A stretch of 64,000 nt of DNA from Candidatus Nomurabacteria bacterium (GCA_023898525.1 CP060227.1:645836-709835), one strand, 5' to 3'; shown: positions 7,922 to 54,237, counted from the stretch's first letter. The notes: generated by a model not told the origin, from the letters alone. Made by a program: numbers and translations.

Positions 7922-8617
7922 ATGACTACCAAAAGTGCCTTTCTTTCTTCAATTATCGTATGTATAACCAGTATTCTACTAGTAGTGTTTTTTACCAGCT
8001 CGGTTGCAATAGCGCAGACTGGTGAAGAAGAAATGTCTTCAGCCACTACTACGGAAACTTCTTTAGAAGACGAAACTGCAAGTGTATCTACAACCACTTT
8101 AGCTACGACGACGAGTGTAAATTCTGGTACCAGTTCGTCGGTTGAGTCGGCGGCTGCTTTAAATCCATCAACTGTTACTCCCTCAGAATTTACTCTTAGC
8201 AAAAGCAAGCAACAACGTGTAACCAATCTTGCAGCCAATATAAGTAACCGGATGGAGGCCGCTATGGCAAGACATGAAAATATTATTAAGCGGTTAAATT
8301 CTCGCCTGTCAAAAATGGAACAGTCTGGGTTAAATACAGATGCTGCTAAGGTGCAGTTAGAGACCGCAGTCAATACATTGGCTGAAGCAAAATCAAGTAT
8401 TCAAGATATCGATAAGCTGGTTTACAACACTGTCACCTCGGTTACACCAAAGGTGGAGTGGTTGTTGCTTCGTGATACATATGTAAATACAGCTGAGTTA
8501 ATAAGAGAAACCCAAGCGGAGCTTTCGGATACGGTGACGATGTTAAAAACAGCTACTCTGATACCGGATGAAGTCGATGACAACAGCTTGTCTTCGTCGA
8601 CAGAGTTCATTGAGTAA
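7922..8617 (+). CDS. hypothetical secreted protein with Ser/Thr-rich low-complexity region
   Basis: N-terminal hydrophobic signal-anchor (FLSSIIVCITSILLVVFFTSSVA), S/T-rich stretch, coiled-coil-like C-terminus. Confidence 0.5.
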   Translation: MTTKSAFLSSIIVCITSILLVVFFTSSVAIAQTGEEEMSSATTTETSLEDETASVSTTTLATTTSVNSGTSSSVESAAALNPSTVTPSEFTLSKSKQQRVTNLAANISNRMEAAMARHENIIKRLNSRLSKMEQSGLNTDAAKVQLETAVNTLAEAKSSIQDIDKLVYNTVTSVTPKVEWLLLRDTYVNTAELIRETQAELSDTVTMLKTATLIPDEVDDNSLSSSTEFIE

Positions 8618-9012: not shown

Positions 9013-9282
9013 TTAAATGTCGTTAAAGTGAACATTTAAACCATAGTATTCATTTATTATTTTTTTGAAGAATGCAGTCAGTGCTTCAAAGGCCCGACTG
9101 TCTCTTTTTTGATACGCGTTATTTACCAAGACGTAAAGTAGCGCGATCTTTTTATTACTGTCCAAAATAGCGCACAACGTTTCTGGCAAACCAGCCTTAG
9201 CTTCTTCTATATCAGACTCTGATATAGAGTTAAGTGTACGCACTAAGTCTCCGCTAAAAACTAAAGGATCATAAGTCTGCAT
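9013..9282 (-). CDS. hypothetical protein
   Basis: 89-aa ORF, no motif. Confidence 0.35.
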   Translation of the reverse strand: MQTYDPLVFSGDLVRTLNSISESDIEEAKAGLPETLCAILDSNKKIALLYVLVNNAYQKRDSRAFEALTAFFKKIINEYYGLNVHFNDI

Positions 9283-9407: not shown

Positions 9408-10598
9408 ATGTCTACACATTCACATAATCACAATATAGATTTTAAGACTGCTTTTACAGTCACTAACGAAGAAAAATCACAGGTAAAGATTACCGGTGAA
9501 ATCCCTTATGAGGAACTGGCCAAGGAAAGATTAGCGGCTATTAAGTCACTAGGAAAAAATGTTGAAATAGACGGCTTTCGAAAGGGTCATGTACCCGAAG
9601 CTGTTTTGGTAAAACACATTGGTGAAATGGCTATTTTGACCGAAATGGCTGAACGTTCTATCTCCCACATGTACCCTCATATATTGGAGGAGCATAAGAT
9701 CGACGCGATTGGTTACCCAAAAATCGAAATTACTAAGATTGCTCCCGAAAATCCACTGGGCTTCACGGCTACCGTAGCGATCATACCGGAGGTTGGGTTG
9801 CCTGACTACAAAAAAATCGCTACTGCTCACAATGCAGAGAAGGGGTCAGCTGATGTGACTGATACGGAGCTAGAGGACAAGATCAAGGATATACTGCGTC
9901 AAAAAGCAGCTTATGAGCGATTGCAGAAAAAAGCTGCTCAAAAGCCTGATTCGACCGAAGTAACCGACCTTCCTACTCCGGAAACTGTGAACAAGGAAGA
10001 TGAAGAGCTTGATATTGCGGAATTAACCGACGAAGTAGCTAAATCGCTTGGTCAGCCGGGACAATTTACTGACGTGGCTGATTTCAAGGCTAAGTTGCGT
10101 GAGCATTTAGAAATAGAAAAAAAGCGTGAGGTAGCGGCAAACCATCGAGCAAAACTAACTGACGCTATTATTGAAATGAGTACTATCGAGTTGCCGCAGA
10201 TCTTGATTGATTCTGAGCTCAACCAAATGTTTGCACAGATGGAAGAAGATTTGAAGCGGTCTAATCTCAAAATGGAAGATTATCTAAATCATATTAAGAA
10301 GACTAAAGAAGAAATCCAAAAAGAGTGGACTCCAGCCGCCGAAAAAAGAGCAAAACTACAACTAATCTTGAATGAAATTGCTAAAAAGGAAAAGATTATA
10401 CCTGATGCGGAATTGGTAGAAAAGCAGGTAAAAGAATTATTGGAAATGTACAAAGATGCAGACGAAATGAGAGTTCGTACGTATGTCGGTACAATTTTAA
10501 CCAACGAAGCAGTTCTGGCGATGTTGGAAGGAAGAGACGACGAAAAGAAAGAAGATAATAAAGATAAAAAGAAAAAGGATAAGGAGGAATCGAAATAA
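9408..10598 (+). CDS. tig: trigger factor (ribosome-associated chaperone) with Lys-rich C-terminal tail
   Basis: N-terminal ribosome-binding domain signature GFRKGHVPEAVLVKHIG; trigger-factor-like three-domain length. Confidence 0.85.
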   Translation: MSTHSHNHNIDFKTAFTVTNEEKSQVKITGEIPYEELAKERLAAIKSLGKNVEIDGFRKGHVPEAVLVKHIGEMAILTEMAERSISHMYPHILEEHKIDAIGYPKIEITKIAPENPLGFTATVAIIPEVGLPDYKKIATAHNAEKGSADVTDTELEDKIKDILRQKAAYERLQKKAAQKPDSTEVTDLPTPETVNKEDEELDIAELTDEVAKSLGQPGQFTDVADFKAKLREHLEIEKKREVAANHRAKLTDAIIEMSTIELPQILIDSELNQMFAQMEEDLKRSNLKMEDYLNHIKKTKEEIQKEWTPAAEKRAKLQLILNEIAKKEKIIPDAELVEKQVKELLEMYKDADEMRVRTYVGTILTNEAVLAMLEGRDDEKKEDNKDKKKKDKEESK

Positions 10599-32778: not shown

Positions 32779-32845
32779 GATAAAAATAAATTATAAACAA
32801 AAGTTGTGGTTGCGTAAAATCAAGGACTCTAAGTGACTGTTAAAA

Positions 32846-32880
32846 CAAAAGAACCGACCTAAAGGTCGGTTCTTTTGTTT
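32846..32880 (-). terminator. intrinsic terminator after MscS-family gene
   Basis: aaaagaaccgacc-taaa-ggtcggttctttt. Confidence 0.6.
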
Positions 32881-33055
32881 AAAGTATTCTAGCTACCTAC
32901 ACGCCAACCGACCAGCTTGTGTAGCTGAAAATCCAAAAGAGCACAATAGCAATAACTTGCTTTACTTCTGTATTTGGAACGGTTGTGGCAATAGCTTGCA
33001 TAATTTCAAGTATAATCAGTTTTAGTTTACTGTCAATTTTTGCTCAAAATAAAAC

Positions 33056-34285: not shown

Positions 34286-34495
34286 TTAGTATGACTTCTT
34301 GACTTTCACGGGATGATCACTTATTCCTTCATGTTCGAAACATGGAAGTTTACGTTTACAGACACCATTGGTGTCAAAAAGTTTGTCACCTCCTTTTCCG
34401 ACCAGGCCTTGATCTATCTTTTCGTAGGTTTGATCTGAATGATTAAGCACTACACCACTCACAGTTGAATCACCTTTTTTATCTGACATTTGCAT
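34286..34495 (-). CDS. small hypothetical protein
   Basis: 69-aa ORF immediately downstream (minus strand) of repeat module A. Confidence 0.3.
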   Translation of the reverse strand: MQMSDKKGDSTVSGVVLNHSDQTYEKIDQGLVGKGGDKLFDTNGVCKRKLPCFEHEGISDHPVKVKKSY

Positions 34496-34570
34496 TCCCC
34501 TTCTAAAATTATTTAAAGGACTTTCCTCTTACCCCGCAAGGGATAAGTATATTTTCAATCTATAATCGTT

Positions 34571-34680
34571 GTGATTACGGACTGATGAAAAATTTTTGTA
34601 AGAAAATTTTTCATCAGTCAACAATTCCTCTCTACCAGAAACAAAACCGGCCCTTTTTGGGCCGGTTTTGTTTCTGGTTG
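34571..34680. repeat. palindrome + terminator-like hairpin module, copy A
   Basis: ttacg-gactgatgaaaaattttt-gtaa-gaaaatttttcatcagtc-aacaa (34579-34618), then ccagaaacaaaaccggccc-ttttt-gggccggttttgtttctgg (34634-34678). Confidence 0.7.
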
Positions 34681-35130
34681 TTCTAAATATATTTTTATAT
34701 ATTTGAACCGACAAACCGACCCTGATCGCTGACAATCCACCCGAGCACGAGAACAATCACTCGCATGGTGCGCTTGAATGAGTAAATGTTTGTCGAATTA
34801 CTCTGCATAAGTTTTAGTATATACCCATAAAGATGAGTGTCAAATATTTTTCCACTGCTTGATTATAAATATAACCGCACATGATCTGGTCGTGTGCGGT
34901 TATTGATTTGATAATATGGGAGTGCCTATTTGTCTCCATGGGTAGTCTCTCGTTGGATTATTTTTTGACGCGTTTCAATAAACTTTGCCATTATTTTTGC
35001 CCTCCTTAATCCTTCGTCAATAGGCTCTGTTGTGTCAGTTGGCAATTGGTTTTGAAATTGGTTAGTATCTTTTTTGTCCATTATCTTCCCCTTAAGTAGG
35101 ATTATATTAAAAGAACTATATTCAGCCGTT

Positions 35131-35240
35131 TGATTACGGACTGATGAAAAATTTTCTTAAGAAAATTTTTCATCAGTCAATAAATTGTGAAGTAGAACAA
35201 AAATCCGGCCAGTGGCCGGATTTTTGTTCTACTTCGCATT
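35131..35240. repeat. palindrome + terminator-like hairpin module, copy B
   Basis: ttacg-gactgatgaaaaattttcttaagaaaatttttcatcagtc-aataa (35139-35178), then gaagtagaacaaaaatccggcc-agtg-gccggatttttgttctacttc (35190-35237). Confidence 0.7.
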
Positions 35241-35392
35241 TTCTTATTTCATTAAAAACAAAACCGACCAGCTCATAAAGCCAATAATAATGCTAATAAT
35301 TGAAATAATTATTTGCGGTATAAAGCTATATGAAATGGTCGCTGTTTTCGCCCTCATCATTACAGTATATTTGGTATGTCTATTAGTGTCAA

Positions 35393-36475
35393 ATATATGT
35401 ACGATCTCACCACCTTTGAGACTCTATCTCATAATGTTCTCTATAATACTCCATGGGCGACAAAAGACCCAGTCCTTCATGCGGTCTCTCATGGTTATAC
35501 CAATACAACCATTCATTCAGTGAATCATTGAAGTCAGGAATACTATCTCGAAGCAGGGATCGGTGATAAATAATGTGTTCTTCTTGAACGGTACGATTGA
35601 ATCGCTCTATATAGGCATTCATCTTAGGACAACGTGGATAAGTGTGATAATGGTTGATGTTAAGAGTTAAACAAGCTTCGTGGAAGTATTTAGCGAATTC
35701 TGAACCATTATCAGTCTGTATCTCATCTATACTAAAAGGGGTATAGTGTATAAGTTGTTTTAGAAAGTCTCGAGCACTATTTGAAGAATGACTGGTATAA
35801 GTACGAGCGTAAGCAAACCGTCTTTCTATGTCTATGGCGGTGAGTATGTACCGTTTAGTGCCATCTATGTGTCTCACGATAGTGTCTATCTCCAAACCTT
35901 GTTTTTGTGGTCTTCTTTGTTTTTTAACCTTGGTTTTTCTTTGTTCTTTGTGTGTACCACTCTTAGCGTACCAAGAGAGCTTAACTGGATTCGGTAGTCT
36001 ACCTAGTTCTTTAAGATCACTGATACAGCGATTAACATAGGAAACTGACACCTTGAATCCTTCCTTCTTCAATAGCGGTACCAGCTTTTTCCCACCAATC
36101 CGTGGTCGCTTAGTACGCCAGTTGATAATAGCTTGCTCTAGTGGTGGTGATATCTGTCTCACTCTTCGTTTCTTAGGAGCAGTACTCTTGGGGTCTAGGG
36201 CTTGGATATTACCATTACTATCATTTAGTTCTTTTTGCCATCTAAATAAAGTTGGTCTAGATACGCCAAAAGCATCTTTGGTGGTATTAGTACCATGTTT
36301 TTGCCAAAACGTGAGTATTTTAACTCTTCTTTCGACCTCCTGTTTGTTTTTCATTGTCTGCCACTTTAGAGCACTATCAGCCGCTTTGGCAAACCCTCTG
36401 GTGTTCCTTAAAATGTTATGTATTCTCATTACTCCTTATTTAAGGAGTCTCATATGTATGTGAGATTATTCAATA
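35393..36475 (-). mobile_element. IS481-family insertion sequence
   Basis: Single 340-aa DDE transposase flanked by imperfect terminal inverted repeats (atctcac...tgagactc motifs at both ends); boundaries approximate. Confidence 0.6.
35407..36429 (-). CDS. IS481-family DDE transposase (integrase core domain)
   Basis: N-terminal HTH, rve core with D(LTAIDIERRF), D(QTDNGSEF), E(YIERFNRTVQEE) spacing. Confidence 0.8.
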   Translation of the reverse strand: MRIHNILRNTRGFAKAADSALKWQTMKNKQEVERRVKILTFWQKHGTNTTKDAFGVSRPTLFRWQKELNDSNGNIQALDPKSTAPKKRRVRQISPPLEQAIINWRTKRPRIGGKKLVPLLKKEGFKVSVSYVNRCISDLKELGRLPNPVKLSWYAKSGTHKEQRKTKVKKQRRPQKQGLEIDTIVRHIDGTKRYILTAIDIERRFAYARTYTSHSSNSARDFLKQLIHYTPFSIDEIQTDNGSEFAKYFHEACLTLNINHYHTYPRCPKMNAYIERFNRTVQEEHIIYHRSLLRDSIPDFNDSLNEWLYWYNHERPHEGLGLLSPMEYYREHYEIESQRW

Positions 36476-36532
36476 TAAAAAAGAAAGCCGCGAGATAAAT
36501 TCGCGGCTAAAAAGATACTGCAACACAATTGA

Positions 36533-37084
36533 TCAGGCGGTCGCTACAGATGTGGCTAAAGCCGTCTCTGCCGGAGGTGATACTTTTAAATACTCAATAT
36601 CACTTACAAATAGCCATTTTGCGTTATCTGCACATGAGTTATATAAGCCGAGATCTGGGTATAAGCCTATATCACCTTGACTGTTCCTGTAGAGTAGTAA
36701 TATGGACCCTTTTGTCGTCTTTAAGCCCTCAAGTTTGAAGGTATCACCGTATACAAAGTAGTTCTCATCTTGTAACAGGTATTTCTGCAAGATATCTGAG
36801 TGAACAGAACAGATGGCATACATCAGTCCGTCAGGTAGTTTTTGCAGACTGCATTTCTCTGCCGAGTCAAATACATCTCCTCTATTCGCGATATTATCCT
36901 CAGACAATTTCTTAAGCTCACCAATTGAAAGACACTTAATCGAAACATTGATTATATCGACATTATTAACATTACTTAGCTGAAAAATCTGTTTTTGATT
37001 TTGTAAAGAATCAGCTATTATTACAGGTTGACTTGTAGAACCTACTCCTAAATGAACTGTTATAATTGGCCACATAAAATTCAT
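36533..37084 (-). CDS. hypothetical protein
   Basis: 183-aa ORF downstream (minus strand) of repeat module C; no motif. Confidence 0.45.
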   Translation of the reverse strand: MNFMWPIITVHLGVGSTSQPVIIADSLQNQKQIFQLSNVNNVDIINVSIKCLSIGELKKLSEDNIANRGDVFDSAEKCSLQKLPDGLMYAICSVHSDILQKYLLQDENYFVYGDTFKLEGLKTTKGSILLLYRNSQGDIGLYPDLGLYNSCADNAKWLFVSDIEYLKVSPPAETALATSVATA

Positions 37085-37273
37085 GATCGTTCTCCTTTAA
37101 AATGCTGTTTAAAAAATAAATCTTTAATCACAGCCGTAGGTACTAATTTAAATTGTAAATAAGTAACTGCGGCTGTGATCAATAGTGCACATGGGAACGT
37201 CGATGTCTGATGATTGTGATAAGTTTTAAAGTACACTACTTCTTCCCTATCTGGGCAAGTTTTGGTCCGTCTT

Positions 37274-37376
37274 TGGTTACGGACCGGTGGAAAATTTTTA
37301 AGCTTAAAAATTTTCCACCGGTCAACAATCATAACTAACAAAAAAACCGGCTCTTGGCCGGTTTTTTTGTTAGTTT
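37274..37376. repeat. palindrome + terminator-like hairpin module, copy C (covarying stem)
   Basis: ttacg-gaccggtggaaaatttttaagcttaaaaattttccaccggtc-aacaa (perfect 42-nt palindrome, 37282-37323), then ctaacaaaaaaaccggc-tctt-ggccggtttttttgttag (37336-37374). Confidence 0.7.
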
Positions 37377-37520
37377 ACACTCACTAATTAAAACAACCGA
37401 CCGAGCCGCTCACCAAAAAACCAAAAATATACAAATGTACTCATTGGCTTCATGTTTACATCAGTTATTTTATTAGTCTGCATTGCCTTAAGTATATTCC
37501 CTTTTTAATAAGTGTCAAAT

Positions 37521-51806: not shown

Positions 51807-51880
51807 CCTGGCGGGTGCACAGAAAATGTTAAAGACCAGCGTTTTAGCTGGTCTTTAACATTTTCTGTGCACCCGCCAGG
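51807..51880. repeat. perfect 34-bp-arm inverted repeat whose right arm is the tRNA-Arg 3' end plus 3' trailer
   Basis: cctggcgggtgcacagaaaatgttaaagaccagc-gtttta-gctggtctttaacattttctgtgcacccgccagg; direct copy of the tRNA 3' end (cccgccaggactcg) again at 51671-51684. Confidence 0.8.
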
Positions 51881-51939
51881 ACTCGAACCCAGAACGACTG
51901 ATCCGAAGTCAGTTGTGATATCCATTTCACCACGGGTGC
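51868..51939 (-). tRNA. tRNA-Arg (anticodon TCG)
   Basis: Reverse complement GCACCCG-TG-GTGA-AATGGATA-TCAC-A-ACTGA-CTTCGGA-TCAGT-CGTT-CTGGG-TTCGAGT-CCTGG-CGGGTGC-A; anticodon UCG. Confidence 0.8.
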
Positions 51940-53546: not shown

Positions 53547-54237
53547 AATGAATGAACAAATTGACTATAATAGGTAGTAAATACCTAGAATACCTATTAT
53601 AATCCCTACCACTAACCAAAACTTGACACCTACTCGATTTTTCTGAGCCATCTTTTCCTCCCGAATAAACTGGTATAAGTAATTACAATTATAACATCTG
53701 CATAGTTAAATTATACAAAGAAAAAAGGCCTGGGGGAATCGAGAGTGAAGATGTGGTTTGTTTCACTGCCGATGCCCTCAGGCCTTTGATTAAGATGAGC
53801 TTTATATTATTGGTGGGTATCGTACCCAAGTTGGCGCTTATTTAAAATTTGAAGCTAACCTTGATCCAAAGCTCTACGTTGTTGTTTTGAGAAATAAATG
53901 TCTCTTATACATTATTTTGAAAGAGTTGTTCTTCAAAATTTAGGATAAGGATATTTCTCTTAGGTGGGATGTTATGAACATTTTTTGTTTTGAGTTATTG
54001 GAGGTAATCTCAATTGTTTTTATAATGTACTCTTTAAGAGGTATCTCCAGAGTTTTGTTTCAAAATTCATTTTGATACAAAACTCTGGAGATTCCTGCTC
54101 GCCCTCTCTGGGCCTACGTATATAGTATGTCCTTTATAAAAGTCTGTAAAGGACAGATGTGTGTATAACTGGGGATAACATTAGGGGCATGTCCTTTATA
54201 AAGGACATGCCCCTGGCAACGTTGTAATTCAATGTTA

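What the first reader, a model, noticed from the sequence alone, without database searches (positions are those of the whole stretch)
34560..37520. Three-member repeat family: conserved TTACG-flanked 40-bp palindrome with covarying arms followed by a long bidirectional terminator-like hairpin and a conserved tail
Modules sit at 34571-34680, 35131-35240 and 37274-37376. The palindrome arms differ between copies A/B (gactgatgaaaaattttt) and C (gaccggtggaaaattttt), yet each stays self-complementary, and the flanks ttacg...aacaa are conserved. Each is followed within 15-20 nt by a 17-22-bp GC-cored hairpin with A/T runs on both sides (aaaaccggccc...gggccggtttt; aaaatccggcc...ggccggatttt; aaaaaaaccggc...gccggttttttt). 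After that come an aaccgacc box and a partly conserved ~100-nt tail ending in agtgtcaaat (34839, 35387, 37504). On the minus strand each module lies 60-190 nt upstream of a small gene (34286-34495; an unlisted 51-aa ORF 34933-35088; 36533-37084). Options are a family of ~100-nt two-hairpin sRNAs, a riboregulatory leader/attenuator, a symmetric operator for a dimeric regulator, or a MITE. The IS481 element (35393-36475) abuts the tail of copy B.
Basis: seen in the sequence. Interest (0 to 1): 0.65.

Follow-up and report, generated by a model that had tools for sequence, protein, structure and literature searches.

The report
Leaderless small-peptide cassettes with RNA hairpin
The repeats are real but belong to the opposite strand: each is a strong promoter driving a tiny gene for a greasy 27-37-residue peptide, then a terminator, then a long covarying RNA hairpin ahead of another small gene. 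This cassette is conserved in related uncultured Paceibacteria, matches no catalogued RNA or protein family, and probably acts as a ribosome-sensing attenuator.

Summary
The window holds four modules, not three; copy D (33036-32843) lacks the palindrome. At least ten more sit at syntenic positions in five related Paceibacteria genomes.

It is a near-consensus promoter (TTGACA-16/17-TATACT) with an ATG 6-8 nt after the -10 box. That ATG opens a leaderless ORF for a hydrophobic peptide: no stops in frame, against 32 and 23 in the other two frames.

The "bidirectional terminator" is this ORF's intrinsic terminator, and such long terminators are the norm in these genomes. The "aaccgacc box" (GGUCGGUU) lies in the last codons and is conserved whatever the reading frame. 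It can pair with the terminator's 5' arm or with the start of the ORF, which is an attenuator layout.

The palindrome is a covarying hairpin: 17 of 25 pairs changed on both sides. Its conserved flanks extend the stem through G·U pairs that are valid only in minus-strand RNA. A second, overlapping helix follows in every copy.

This is not a MITE and not a plus-strand sRNA, and no antitoxin RNA was found. What the attenuator senses and what the hairpin does remain inferred.

The parts
37491..37518 (-). Module C promoter, TTGACA-16-TATACT
   Evidence: 11 of 12 consensus match, among the top three in the region. The ATG lies 7 nt after the -10 box.
37388..37483 (-). Module C leaderless small ORF, 31 aa: MQTNKITDVNMKPMSTFVYFWFFGERLGRLF
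   Evidence: Orthologues C' in L062 and F1 in L071 keep the frame.
37395..37402 (-). Module C box GGUCGGUU (region 2), inside the last codons
   Evidence: Conserved in all 14 modules whatever the frame. Pairs with the terminator 5' arm at -10.8 kcal/mol.
37333..37375 (-). Module C intrinsic terminator, 19-bp stem
37275..37331 (-). Module C hairpin P1: perfect palindrome 37282-37323 plus the flanking outer helix
37264..37285 (-). Module C helix P2 (GGUCCGU / ACGGACC), overlapping the base of P1
36533..37084 (-). Downstream SD-led gene of module C, 183 aa, an orphan
   Evidence: A further long hairpin lies in its leader at 37124-37182 (I5).
35364..35392 (-). Module B promoter, TTGACA-17-TATACT
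   Evidence: 11 of 12 match.
35244..35357 (-). Module B leaderless small ORF, 37 aa from the second ATG: MRAKTATISYSFIPQIIISIISIIIGFMSWSVLFLMK
35262..35269 (-). Module B box GGUCGGUU (region 2)
   Evidence: family D5 groups it with the terminator arms.: -15.4 kcal/mol with the terminator 5' arm.
35189..35235 (-). Module B intrinsic terminator, 22-23-bp stem
35131..35187 (-). Module B hairpin P1: perfect palindrome 35139-35178 plus flanks
35123..35143 (-). Module B helix P2 (CAGUCCG / CGGCUG)
34926..35081 (-). Downstream SD-led gene of module B, 51 aa
34816..34843 (-). Module A promoter, TTGACA-16-TATACT
   Evidence: 11 of 12 match.
34695..34808 (-). Module A leaderless small ORF, 37 aa: MQSNSTNIYSFKRTMRVIVLVLGWIVSDQGRFVGSNI
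34706..34722 (-). Module A box, doubled (GGGUCGGUUUGUCGGUU)
   Evidence: -18.1 kcal/mol with the terminator 5' arm, p = 0.003 against shuffles.
34634..34678 (-). Module A intrinsic terminator, 20-bp stem
34572..34627 (-). Module A hairpin P1: palindrome 34580-34619 plus flanks
34556..34588 (-). Module A helix P2: the end of the right arm plus its 3' flank pairs with L' (GAUUAUAGAUUGA)
34286..34495 (-). Downstream SD-led gene of module A, 69 aa
33009..33036 (-).
32897..33001 (-). Module D leaderless small ORF, 34 aa: MQAIATTVPNTEVKQVIAIVLFWIFSYTSWSVGV. The box lies at 32906-32913.
   Evidence: Against D' in L062 there are 5 synonymous codon changes and a 2-codon in-frame indel.
32843..32880 (-). 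Module D intrinsic terminator. Its stem is AACCGACC/GGUCGGUU, so its 3' arm is identical to the box. No palindrome follows.
35397..36471 (-). IS element (rve/HTH_32 transposase ORF 35407-36429) inserted just upstream of module B's -35 box. It is not part of the cassette.
   Evidence: A 5-bp direct repeat (ATATT in sense) flanks it, read. It is absent at the same place in L062.

Best explanation
Each module is a minus-strand expression cassette that is conserved in a clade of Paceibacteria (Candidatus Nomurabacteria and relatives).

Shown:
- A near-consensus sigma-70 promoter sits so close to an ATG (6-8 nt after the -10 box) that the mRNA must be leaderless.
- The mRNA encodes a 27-37-aa peptide with a polar N-terminus and a hydrophobic C-terminal half. 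The peptides form one family (MQxIATT...VLFWIFSY.SWSVGV).
- A strong intrinsic terminator follows 8-27 nt after the stop codon.
- In 12 of 14 modules a 50-55-nt hairpin (P1, the 'palindrome') follows, then an overlapping helix P2, and then a Shine-Dalgarno-led small gene that evolves fast.

Inferred, step 1. The cassette works as a ribosome-dependent transcription attenuator.
- The invariant box GGUCGGUU (region 2) lies in the last codons.
- It can pair with nt ~10-25 of the ORF (region 1) or with the 5' arm of the terminator (region 3).
- A ribosome that reaches the stop codon covers the box, so the terminator forms. This yields abundant short peptide mRNA.
- A ribosome delayed early in the ORF leaves the box free to sequester the terminator arm, and RNA polymerase reads through.

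Inferred, step 2. P1 and P2 act as RNA in that read-through transcript.
- The most likely role is as a double-stranded processing or stability element.
- For example, RNase III could cleave the 25-29-bp stem. The remaining 3' half would then refold with the downstream copy L' into a 5' hairpin.
- This would set how much of the downstream gene is expressed from the very strong upstream promoter.
For: Promoters
- The three or four best sigma-70-like sites in each region are the module promoters, at 11 of 12 consensus positions.
- All 14 modules have an ATG 6-8 nt after the -10 box; one has it at 11 nt.

Coding
- There are 0 stops in the ORF frame against 32 and 23 in the other frames. Each ORF has about a 0.09 chance of staying open given its composition.
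- The second codon position is the least variable: D/D' 11/3/8 and B/B' 6/2/6 differences by position. D and D' differ by five synonymous codon changes and an in-frame indel.
- The peptides align as one family, and the C-terminal half is hydrophobic.

Conservation
- Modules lie at syntenic positions after the ECF sigma/DUF5667 pair in L062, L064, L066, L071, L074 and L076.

Attenuator layout
- The box is invariant although it is read as W-S-V, G-R-F/L or other frames.
- Box to terminator 5' arm duplexes are -8 to -21 kcal/mol. Each beats every other window of its own mRNA, and 13 of 14 reach p <= 0.05 against shuffles.
- In nascent-RNA folds the box pairs with the terminator arm in A, C and D.
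- Region 1 pairs with region 2 in the minimum-energy fold of 11 of 14 modules.
- The box lies 5-23 nt before the stop codon, within a terminating ribosome's footprint.

P1 as sense-strand RNA
- 90.8% of cells are paired and 17 of 25 pairs changed on both sides; 0 of 500 shuffles reach this, and slid registers give 35-56%.
- G·U pairs valid only in the sense strand number 32, against 9 valid only in the antisense strand.
- The sense fold is more stable in 8 of 12 copies.

P2
- Cognate duplexes average -13.3 kcal/mol against -8.2 for non-cognate ones, permutation p < 5e-5.

Read-through
- No other promoter is conserved between the terminator and P1, so P1-containing RNA must come from read-through (reading).
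Against: - No transcript data exist. The transcription start, the leaderless translation and any read-through are all inferred.
- The terminators are very strong (12-23-bp stems, -25 to -40 kcal/mol) compared with the 8-12-bp antiterminator.
- In B, B' and D' the terminator arm changed (AUCCGGCC) without a compensating change in the box.
- In A', B and B' the nascent fold does not use the box to terminator pairing.
- The peptide shows no run of one regulatory amino acid, and its sequence is itself conserved. That fits a functional peptide as well as, or better than, a mere leader.
- The downstream genes are not homologous between genomes. Modules D and D' have no P1.
- In the window's own three copies the sense and antisense folds are equally stable.
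- Five of 12 palindromes are perfect through the centre, which RNA cannot exploit and which hints at DNA-level symmetry.
- Removing the left arm does not change the predicted accessibility of the Shine-Dalgarno site.
- The RNase III role is pure inference.
Confidence: 0.45

Rival explanations
1. The small ORF is a stand-alone gene for a small membrane peptide, possibly a type I toxin-like or otherwise functional micropeptide. It has a constitutive strong terminator. The 5'-3' pairing of its mRNA tunes stability or translation rather than termination. P1 and P2 belong to the separate leader of the next gene, transcribed from a promoter I did not recognise or by basal read-through.
For: - The peptide family is conserved at the amino-acid level, with synonymous changes and a hydrophobic, transmembrane-like C-terminal half.
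- It has a consensus promoter and a very strong terminator.
- Several paralogues lie in tandem, as with many type I toxin loci.
- A long-range 5'-3' helix in the mRNA recalls hok- and aapA-type toxin mRNAs (my own knowledge).
- D and D' exist without P1.
- The downstream genes are not conserved.
Against: - No antisense or divergent sRNA promoter is conserved.
- There is no match to any toxin family in Pfam, NCBIfam or PADLOC, nor to any antitoxin RNA in Rfam.
- The box is conserved at the nucleotide level across reading frames and mimics the terminator's 3' arm. A plain small gene does not need that.
- No promoter is conserved between the terminator and P1.
Confidence: 0.3
2. The palindrome acts as double-stranded DNA. 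It would be a symmetric binding site or cruciform for a dimeric or tetrameric protein that controls the downstream gene's promoter. The conserved TTG(AC) at its left edge would serve as a -35 box.
For: - The palindromes are perfect, including the centre (TTAA, AGCT), in 5 of 12 copies.
- The inner core GAAAA(A)TTTT is conserved.
- TTGACT-18-GAAAAT scores 9 of 12 as a promoter in A, B and A'.
- Other AT-centred perfect palindromes occur in these genomes.
Against: - The outer arms differ between copies within one genome but stay complementary: 14 of 18 inner pairs carry double changes. A single regulator would not tolerate this.
- The spacing from the putative -35 to the putative -10 would vary from 14 to 22 nt between copies, so a promoter there is not conserved.
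- Diverged copies keep pairing by G·U only on the sense strand.
- Copy H has lost the inner core but keeps the outer stem.
- P2 co-varies with each copy's own right arm.
Confidence: 0.1
3. One reading: a ~100-nt plus-strand sRNA made of the palindrome hairpin plus the terminator hairpin, perhaps an antitoxin that overlaps the 3' end of the peptide mRNA, as in par RNA II.
For: - The terminator has A and T runs on both sides, so it could stop plus-strand transcripts.
- Copy A has a TATAAT at 34561-34566, 8 nt before the conserved block.
- Weak promoter-like sites (8 of 12) lie with their -10 box in the aacaat flank in several copies.
Against: - No promoter is conserved. The required T at the last position of the aacaat hexamer is present in only 6 of 12 copies, and no hit exceeds 9 of 12.
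- Copy C has none.
- The G·U asymmetry favours the other strand.
- A/T-extended terminators are generic in this genome.
- D and D' lack the palindrome yet keep the peptide unit.
Confidence: 0.05
4. A mobile repeat: a MITE or PATE derived from IS200/IS605, a REP element or an integron attC site.
For: - There are several copies within 5 kb.
- There is a hairpin next to TTAC and a tail containing TCAA, which recalls IS608 ends (my own recollection).
- A Y1 transposase gene lies about 7 kb away on the contig.
Against: - The copies have no terminal inverted repeats and no target duplications.
- They sit at the same syntenic positions in six genomes whose neighbouring DUF5667 proteins are only ~55% identical.
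- The 'TCAA' is part of the -35 box.
- Only these copies occur in 64 kb.
- No true copy was found among 185,579 representative genomes with the flank-plus-arm pattern.
- The stems lack the extrahelical bases and the GTTRRRY core of attC sites.
Confidence: 0.02

Closest known systems
Leader-peptide (ribosome-dependent) transcription attenuators of the trp, thr, his and pheA type
   Same: - A short ORF directly upstream of an intrinsic terminator on the same strand as the next gene.
- A segment at the end of the ORF (region 2) that can pair with an upstream segment (region 1) or with the terminator's 5' arm (region 3).
- A stop codon placed so that a terminating ribosome masks region 2.
- Rfam Thr_leader and Phe_leader models give only sub-threshold hits of 24-27 bits against a 55-bit cut-off.
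   Different: - The mRNA is leaderless.
- There is no run of one regulatory codon.
- The peptide sequence is itself conserved and hydrophobic.
- The terminators are much stronger than the antiterminator.
- The downstream genes are tiny orphans rather than biosynthetic operons.
- An extra long hairpin lies between the terminator and the gene.
Leaderless short-ORF attenuators of mycobacteria (polycysteine small ORFs; bioRxiv 10.1101/834739, found)
   Same: An unannotated leaderless small ORF as the first cistron, whose translation controls expression of the downstream genes.
   Different: - Those ORFs are Cys-rich and respond to cysteine supply.
- In this cassette there is no amino-acid bias, the phylum is different (Patescibacteria), and there is a canonical terminator plus the P1/P2 structure.
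- I took only the title and abstract from that paper.
Type I toxin-antitoxin loci such as par (Fst with RNA I/RNA II), hok/sok and aapA/IsoA (my own knowledge)
   Same: - A hydrophobic peptide of fewer than 40 aa.
- A strong promoter and a highly structured mRNA with 5'-3' pairing.
- A bidirectional-looking terminator.
- Tandem paralogues.
   Different: - No antisense or convergent antitoxin RNA promoter is found.
- There is no similarity to known toxin or antitoxin families.
- The mRNA is leaderless.
- Toxicity is untested.
RNase III-processed leader hairpins, for example rpsO-pnp, the rnc leader and phage T7 R1.1 (my own knowledge)
   Same: A stem of about 22-29 bp, nearly perfect, placed between an upstream transcription unit and a downstream cistron.
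   Different: - No cleavage data exist.
- There is an unusual third arm, L', that can re-pair with the 3' half of the stem.
- The centre of the stem is perfectly palindromic in several copies.

Membership tests
Ribosome-dependent leader-peptide attenuator | A short translated ORF in the transcript upstream of the regulated gene, on the same strand | tested here: met
   The ORF is open in 14 of 14 modules, with 0 stops against 32 and 23 in the other frames, and shows a coding substitution pattern. Translation itself is not shown.
Ribosome-dependent leader-peptide attenuator | An intrinsic terminator between the leader ORF and the structural gene | tested here: met
   12-23-bp GC-cored stems followed by U tracts, 8-27 nt after the stop codon.
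Ribosome-dependent leader-peptide attenuator | An antiterminator (2:3) that competes with the terminator (3:4), plus a 1:2 helix | tested here: inconclusive
   The 2:3 duplex is -8 to -21 kcal/mol and beats the controls in 13 of 14 modules. The 1:2 helix appears in 11 of 14 minimum-energy folds. However, the nascent folds use 2:3 only in A, C, D and partly D' among the eight modules tested. There is also no compensating change in the box where the arm became AUCCGGCC.
Ribosome-dependent leader-peptide attenuator | Leader codons enriched for the amino acid or signal that is sensed | tested here: not met
   There is no shared run of one residue. Thr is only loosely enriched at codons 4-9, where it coincides with the RNA element ACAACC.
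Ribosome-dependent leader-peptide attenuator | Conditional read-through in vivo | not testable with these tools
   No transcriptome data were available.
Type I toxin-antitoxin system | A small hydrophobic toxin peptide | tested here: inconclusive
   The peptides are 27-37 aa. Maximum mean Kyte-Doolittle hydropathy over a 15-residue window is 1.6-2.7 in 11 of 14. Toxicity is unknown.
Type I toxin-antitoxin system | A cis-antisense or adjacent sRNA antitoxin with its own promoter | tested here: not met
   No antisense promoter is positionally conserved. The best recurring candidate scores 8-9 of 12 and lacks the last -10 base (the T at -7) in half of the copies.
Type I toxin-antitoxin system | Homology to a described toxin or antitoxin family | tested here: not met
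   Pfam, NCBIfam and PADLOC gave no hit. Rfam gave tRNAs only at gathering score, and OrzO-P, AgrB and RNAI at 19-29 bits, below their cut-offs.
MITE, PATE or REP mobile repeat | Terminal or subterminal inverted repeats at both ends, and target-site duplication or a specific target | tested here: not met
   The module ends are ATTTGACA... and ...GTAATCA, which are not inverted copies of each other, and there are no flanking direct repeats.
MITE, PATE or REP mobile repeat | Dispersed copies, with presence or absence varying between relatives | tested here: not met
   The modules lie at syntenic positions in six genomes. There are no other copies in the 64-kb window, and none of 50 pattern hits in representative genomes is palindromic.
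Integron attC site | An imperfect palindrome with R''/L''/L'/R' boxes, a GTTRRRY core and extrahelical bases, with an IntI gene nearby | tested here: not met
   The stems are perfect with no extrahelical bases, and the flank is GTTGACT/CCGTAAT rather than GTTRRRY/RYYYAAC. Pfam domains listed for the genes called within 10 kb on either side of the 183-aa gene show no integron integrase, only a serine recombinase about 6 kb away. I did not search specifically for IntI.
Any Rfam family | A score at or above the family's gathering threshold | tested here: not met
Palindromic operator of a dimeric regulator | The same half-site sequence at all sites of one genome | tested here: not met
   A and B against C differ at 3 of 17 arm positions, with compensation. 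Across the copies, 14 of 18 inner pairs carry double changes.

The most novel reading that the evidence does not exclude
The cassette may be a previously undescribed kind of ribosome-gated riboregulator that is typical of Paceibacteria.

- A conserved leaderless hydrophobic peptide, possibly an arrest or sensor peptide, would control read-through of a strong terminator.
- The read-through RNA carries a three-arm switch (L-R-L'). Processing or refolding of this switch would decide the fate of fast-evolving downstream micro-genes.
- Alternatively, peptide and hairpin may form a new toxin-like module that is controlled without an antisense RNA.
Probability: 0.15. Interest if true: 0.7.

Novelty: new variant of a known kind. 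Interest (0 to 1): 0.5.

Why it matters
Patescibacteria (the candidate phyla radiation, CPR) are uncultured, and I know of very little work on how they regulate their genes.

This locus gives a concrete and well-conserved example of several things:
- canonical sigma-70 promoters in this group;
- apparent leaderless translation of unannotated micro-proteins, which no gene caller found;
- a structured RNA with strong covariation that is absent from Rfam.

If the attenuator reading holds, it would extend leader-peptide control to a phylum with minimal metabolism, and to targets that are not biosynthetic genes. The peptide family and the hairpin are simple enough to test in a heterologous host.

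If the reading does not hold, the cassette still adds a family of highly expressed membrane micro-peptides to CPR gene inventories.

Tried and rejected
- Representative genomes: I scanned them with TTACGGACNNNTGNAAAATTT. All 50 hits were single and non-palindromic, so they are chance matches.
- Metagenomes and viral contigs: I scanned for GGAC-N6-AAAATTTT-N2-12-AAAATTTT-N6-GTC. Nine loci matched in metagenomes and none in viral contigs. Most of the nine are perfect palindromes, but with other flanks (TTTCGGGACA...) and no cassette, so they are not the same family.
- Peptide homology: the word-index search refuses queries under 40 aa. The exhaustive search of 1.84 billion representative proteins with peptide D found nothing.
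- Downstream proteins: Pfam, NCBIfam and PADLOC gave nothing useful. The 183-aa protein finds only itself, so I did not attempt a structure prediction because no alignment was available.
- Antitoxin search: I looked for par-like complementarity between the plus-strand palindrome RNA and the 5' end of the peptide mRNA. A 10-of-13 match seen by eye in copy A is not reproduced in B or C.
- ECF-sigma promoter reading of the CGTAA flank: no AAC-type -35 box lies at 16-17 nt.
- Tiny ORF inside the palindrome (MKNFLKKIFHQSV...): the frame is not kept in copy E or in the C-type copies.
- Promoter inside the palindrome (TTGACT...GAAAAT): the spacing varies from 14 to 22 nt between copies.
- Shine-Dalgarno occlusion switch driven by presence or absence of the left arm: predicted accessibility does not change consistently.
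- A relay pairing the terminator's 3' arm with the left arm of P1: only weak A-U complementarity by eye.

Full report
**1. The observation**

The sequence is as described.
- The three palindromes are 34580-34619, 35139-35178 and 37282-37323. They have 17-21-nt arms with 100% complementarity. A and B are the same, and C differs at three positions per arm, each compensated.
- A degenerate 22-mer covering the flank and arm occurs six times, that is both strands of three sites, against 0.01 expected.
- Each palindrome is followed on the plus strand by a 19-23-bp hairpin (34634-34678, 35189-35235, 37333-37375) and by a block ending in ATTTGACACT, read on the minus strand.
- As RNA, the palindrome regions fold with z-scores of -4.7 to -6.8 on either strand.

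**2. Re-reading on the minus strand**

- A promoter scan puts the three best sigma-70-like sites of the region in the 'tails': TTGACA-16/17-TATACT, matching 11 of 12 positions, on the minus strand.
- An ATG lies 6-7 nt after each -10 box and opens an ORF of 37, 37 and 31 codons. Each ORF ends 8-16 nt before the big hairpin.
- The big hairpin is therefore the ORF's intrinsic terminator.
- Such long stems extended by A and T tracts are the usual terminator style in this genome and its relatives. The 'bidirectional' look is not special to these modules.
- An nhmmer profile of the three modules finds a fourth copy, D, at 33043-32823 (E = 4.5e-15). It has promoter, ORF (33001-32897) and terminator but no palindrome, and sits ahead of the glutamine amidotransferase (GATase) gene.

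**3. Source and relatives**

- The window comes from MAG GCA_020632175.1, contig JACKGB010000006.1, named Candidatus Nomurabacteria.
- I fetched syntenic loci through homologues of the neighbouring MscS and DUF5667 proteins. They are L062 (GCA_041389025.1), L064, L066 (GCA_964399295.1), L071 (L070, L072 and L073 carry the same locus; one base differs in L072), L074 and L076.
- The profile finds modules at corresponding places in all of them: four in L062, one in L064, one in L066, two in L071, one in L074 and one in L076 (sequences).
- L065, a more distant relative, has only a terminator at that place.
- With the window's four copies this makes 14 modules.
- DUF5667 is only ~55% identical between these genomes. 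The cassette is therefore old and vertically inherited, not a recently mobile repeat.

**4. The small ORF is coding and leaderless**

- All 14 modules have a TTGACA-like box, a 16-18-nt spacer, TATACT (TATATT in one), and then an ATG after 6-8 nt (11 nt in one). That leaves no room for a Shine-Dalgarno site.
- The frame set by that ATG has no stop across the 14 ORFs, while the other two frames have 32 and 23. Each ORF has about a 0.09 chance of being open given its composition.
- Orthologous pairs differ least at the second codon position: D/D' 11/3/8 and B/B' 6/2/6.
- D and D' show five purely synonymous codon changes and a two-codon in-frame indel.
- The peptides align as one family with a polar N-terminal third and a hydrophobic C-terminal half, for example MQAIATTVPNTEVKQVIAIVLFWIFSYTSWSVGV.
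- None was called by the public annotations, and none is found in protein databases.

**5. The 'aaccgacc box'**

- On the minus strand the box is GGUCGGUU and lies 5-23 nt before the stop codon.
- It is present in all 14 modules. It is read as W-S-V in most, but as G-R-F or G-R-L in A, C and F1, so it is conserved as nucleic acid and not as peptide.
- It resembles the 3' arm of the terminator (GGYCGGUU), and the resemblance extends in a copy-specific way in A, B, C and I.
- It is complementary to the terminator's 5' arm. Those duplexes are -8 to -21 kcal/mol, always better than any other window of the same mRNA, and 13 of 14 reach p <= 0.05 against shuffles.
- In folds of the nascent RNA that lack the 3' arm, the box pairs with the terminator's 5' arm in A, C and D, but not in A', B or B'.
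- In folds of the mRNA body the box pairs with nt ~10-25 of the ORF in 11 of 14 modules.

Regions 1:2 and 3:4 against 2:3, with the stop codon placed so that a terminating ribosome covers region 2, is the layout of classical leader-peptide attenuators.

Caveats:
- The terminators are far stronger than the antiterminator.
- B, B' and D' changed the terminator arm without a compensating change in the box.
- There is no regulatory codon run.

**6. The palindrome is a covarying hairpin, best read as minus-strand RNA**

- Twelve modules have the hairpin.
- On an alignment of the twelve (A4) with a 7-bp outer and an 18-bp inner helix, 90.8% of cells pair and 17 of 25 pairs changed on both sides. In the inner helix 14 of 18 pairs did.
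- No shuffle out of 500 reaches these values, and sliding the register drops pairing to 35-56%.
They pair with each other through U·G and G·U pairs.
- Cells that pair only as sense RNA number 32, against 9 that would pair only as antisense RNA. For the inner helix without the degenerate copy H the count is 8 against 1.
- Sense folds are more stable than antisense folds in 8 of 12 copies, by up to 12 kcal/mol in the most diverged ones.
- The window's own three copies are perfect palindromes and do not discriminate between strands.
- One observation points the other way. Five copies are palindromic right through the centre (TTAA, AGCT), which RNA cannot use. That needs a DNA-level cause or a mutational cause such as template switching.

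**7. A second helix**

- In every module, the last ~9 nt of the right arm plus the 3' flank are complementary to an element L' that lies 5-25 nt downstream. L' is a degenerate copy of the left arm.
- Cognate duplexes average -13.3 kcal/mol against -8.2 for non-cognate pairs (permutation p < 5e-5).
- RNAs that lack the left arm fold into this helix, P2.
- P2 overlaps the base of P1, so the two compete or coexist with a shortened P1.
- I found no consistent effect on the accessibility of the Shine-Dalgarno site.

**8. What lies downstream**

- Every module is followed on the same strand by a gene. All have a good Shine-Dalgarno site except the GATase gene after D.
- These genes are small and evolve fast. 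The 183-aa and 184-aa proteins are 23% identical, and several are not detectably related between genomes.
- They have no family assignment.
- No promoter is conserved between the terminator and these genes.
- P1 must contain its left arm to form, and it appears to be selected as sense RNA. Together these imply that terminator read-through transcripts exist and matter. This is my main reason to prefer a regulated or leaky attenuator over a purely constitutive terminator.

**9. Rivals**

- Stand-alone micro-protein or type I toxin gene. This remains a serious alternative, because the peptide is conserved, the paralogues lie in tandem and the mRNA is structured. However, no antitoxin RNA promoter is conserved and no known toxin or antitoxin family matches.
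- DNA operator. This fits the central symmetry, but not the compensated divergence of the half-sites, the G·U asymmetry or P2.
- Plus-strand sRNA. It lacks a conserved promoter and is on the wrong strand for the wobble pairs.
- Mobile element (MITE, PATE, REP or attC). This is excluded by synteny, by the lack of terminal repeats and target duplications, and by the absence of dispersed copies.
- The IS element at about 35397-36471 is a separate, recent insertion with a 5-bp duplication. It is absent from L062.

**10. Verdict**

- The finding is a real, conserved, multi-part cassette.
- I am confident of the anatomy. The attenuator mechanism is plausible but unproven, at roughly 0.45. The role of the hairpin in RNA processing or stability is a guess.
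- Compared with known systems, it is a new variant of leader-peptide and structured-leader control. It has leaderless translation and an unusual three-arm hairpin, in a phylum where I know of little work on regulation.
- Interest is moderate, at 0.5.

Noticed in passing
window 35392-35396 and 36472-36476 (IS body about 35397-36471): The IS element (rve/HTH_32 transposase) is flanked by a 5-bp direct repeat, ATATT on the minus strand. It sits between the terminator of the 183-aa gene and the -35 box of module B. The same junction in L062 (8755-8793) is uninterrupted, so the insertion is recent and replaced the DNA upstream of a very strong promoter.
   Followed up: partly
window 54125-54152 and 54183-54214; L071 892-929: A different family of palindromes shares the core (AT)GTCCTTTATAAAGGAC(AT). 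There are two copies 60 nt apart in the window and one in a related genome. It looks like an operator, and I did not analyse it.
   Followed up: no
window 51807-51880, next to tRNA-Arg at 51867-51939 (minus strand): A perfect inverted repeat with 34-nt arms has a right arm that includes the last ~14 nt of the tRNA-Arg gene. A similar arrangement, with a terminator stem reaching into the 3' end of a tRNA, is visible in L076 at about 10010-10080. It could be a tRNA 3' processing or terminator design, or an integration scar.
   Followed up: no
window 37124-37182; L062 about 8100-8165: The leader of the C-type downstream gene holds a further long hairpin: 27-nt arms with 85% complementarity in the window. 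It differs in sequence from the equally long hairpin at the same place in L062, which suggests another covarying leader structure.
   Followed up: partly
window about 34519-34529 and 35102-35112 (minus strand); L062 about 8047-8057, 9074-9084 and 9651-9661; also L066 and L074 leaders: The motif AGTTCTTTAAA recurs in most downstream leaders, directly 5' of the Shine-Dalgarno site in L066 and L074 and 14-25 nt or more upstream of it in the window and L062. Its function is unknown. It may be a weak anti-SD or a protein site.
   Followed up: no
L064 4077-4112: A P1-like perfect palindrome (CGCGGTTTGTTTTGAAATTTTTCAAAACAAACCGCG, with a similar GAAATTTTTC core) lies upstream of a 405-aa gene with no peptide cassette in front of it. 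Hairpins of this style may therefore also occur on their own.
   Followed up: no
L053-L061 (metagenome hits): Unrelated metagenome contigs carry ~50-bp perfect palindromes of the form TTTCGGGACA-N-ATGAAAATTTTT...AAAAATTTTCAT-N-TGTCCCGAAA. Some have extra TTTCGGGACA repeats nearby, and in L061 the palindrome sits just upstream of a consensus promoter. This seems to be a separate family of unknown function.
   Followed up: no
window 32779-32800 (minus strand), upstream of the GATase gene 32778-31996: The GATase gene after module D has a TATAAT 11 nt before its ATG and no Shine-Dalgarno site. This suggests that leaderless or near-leaderless translation is used for ordinary genes in this organism too.
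   Followed up: no
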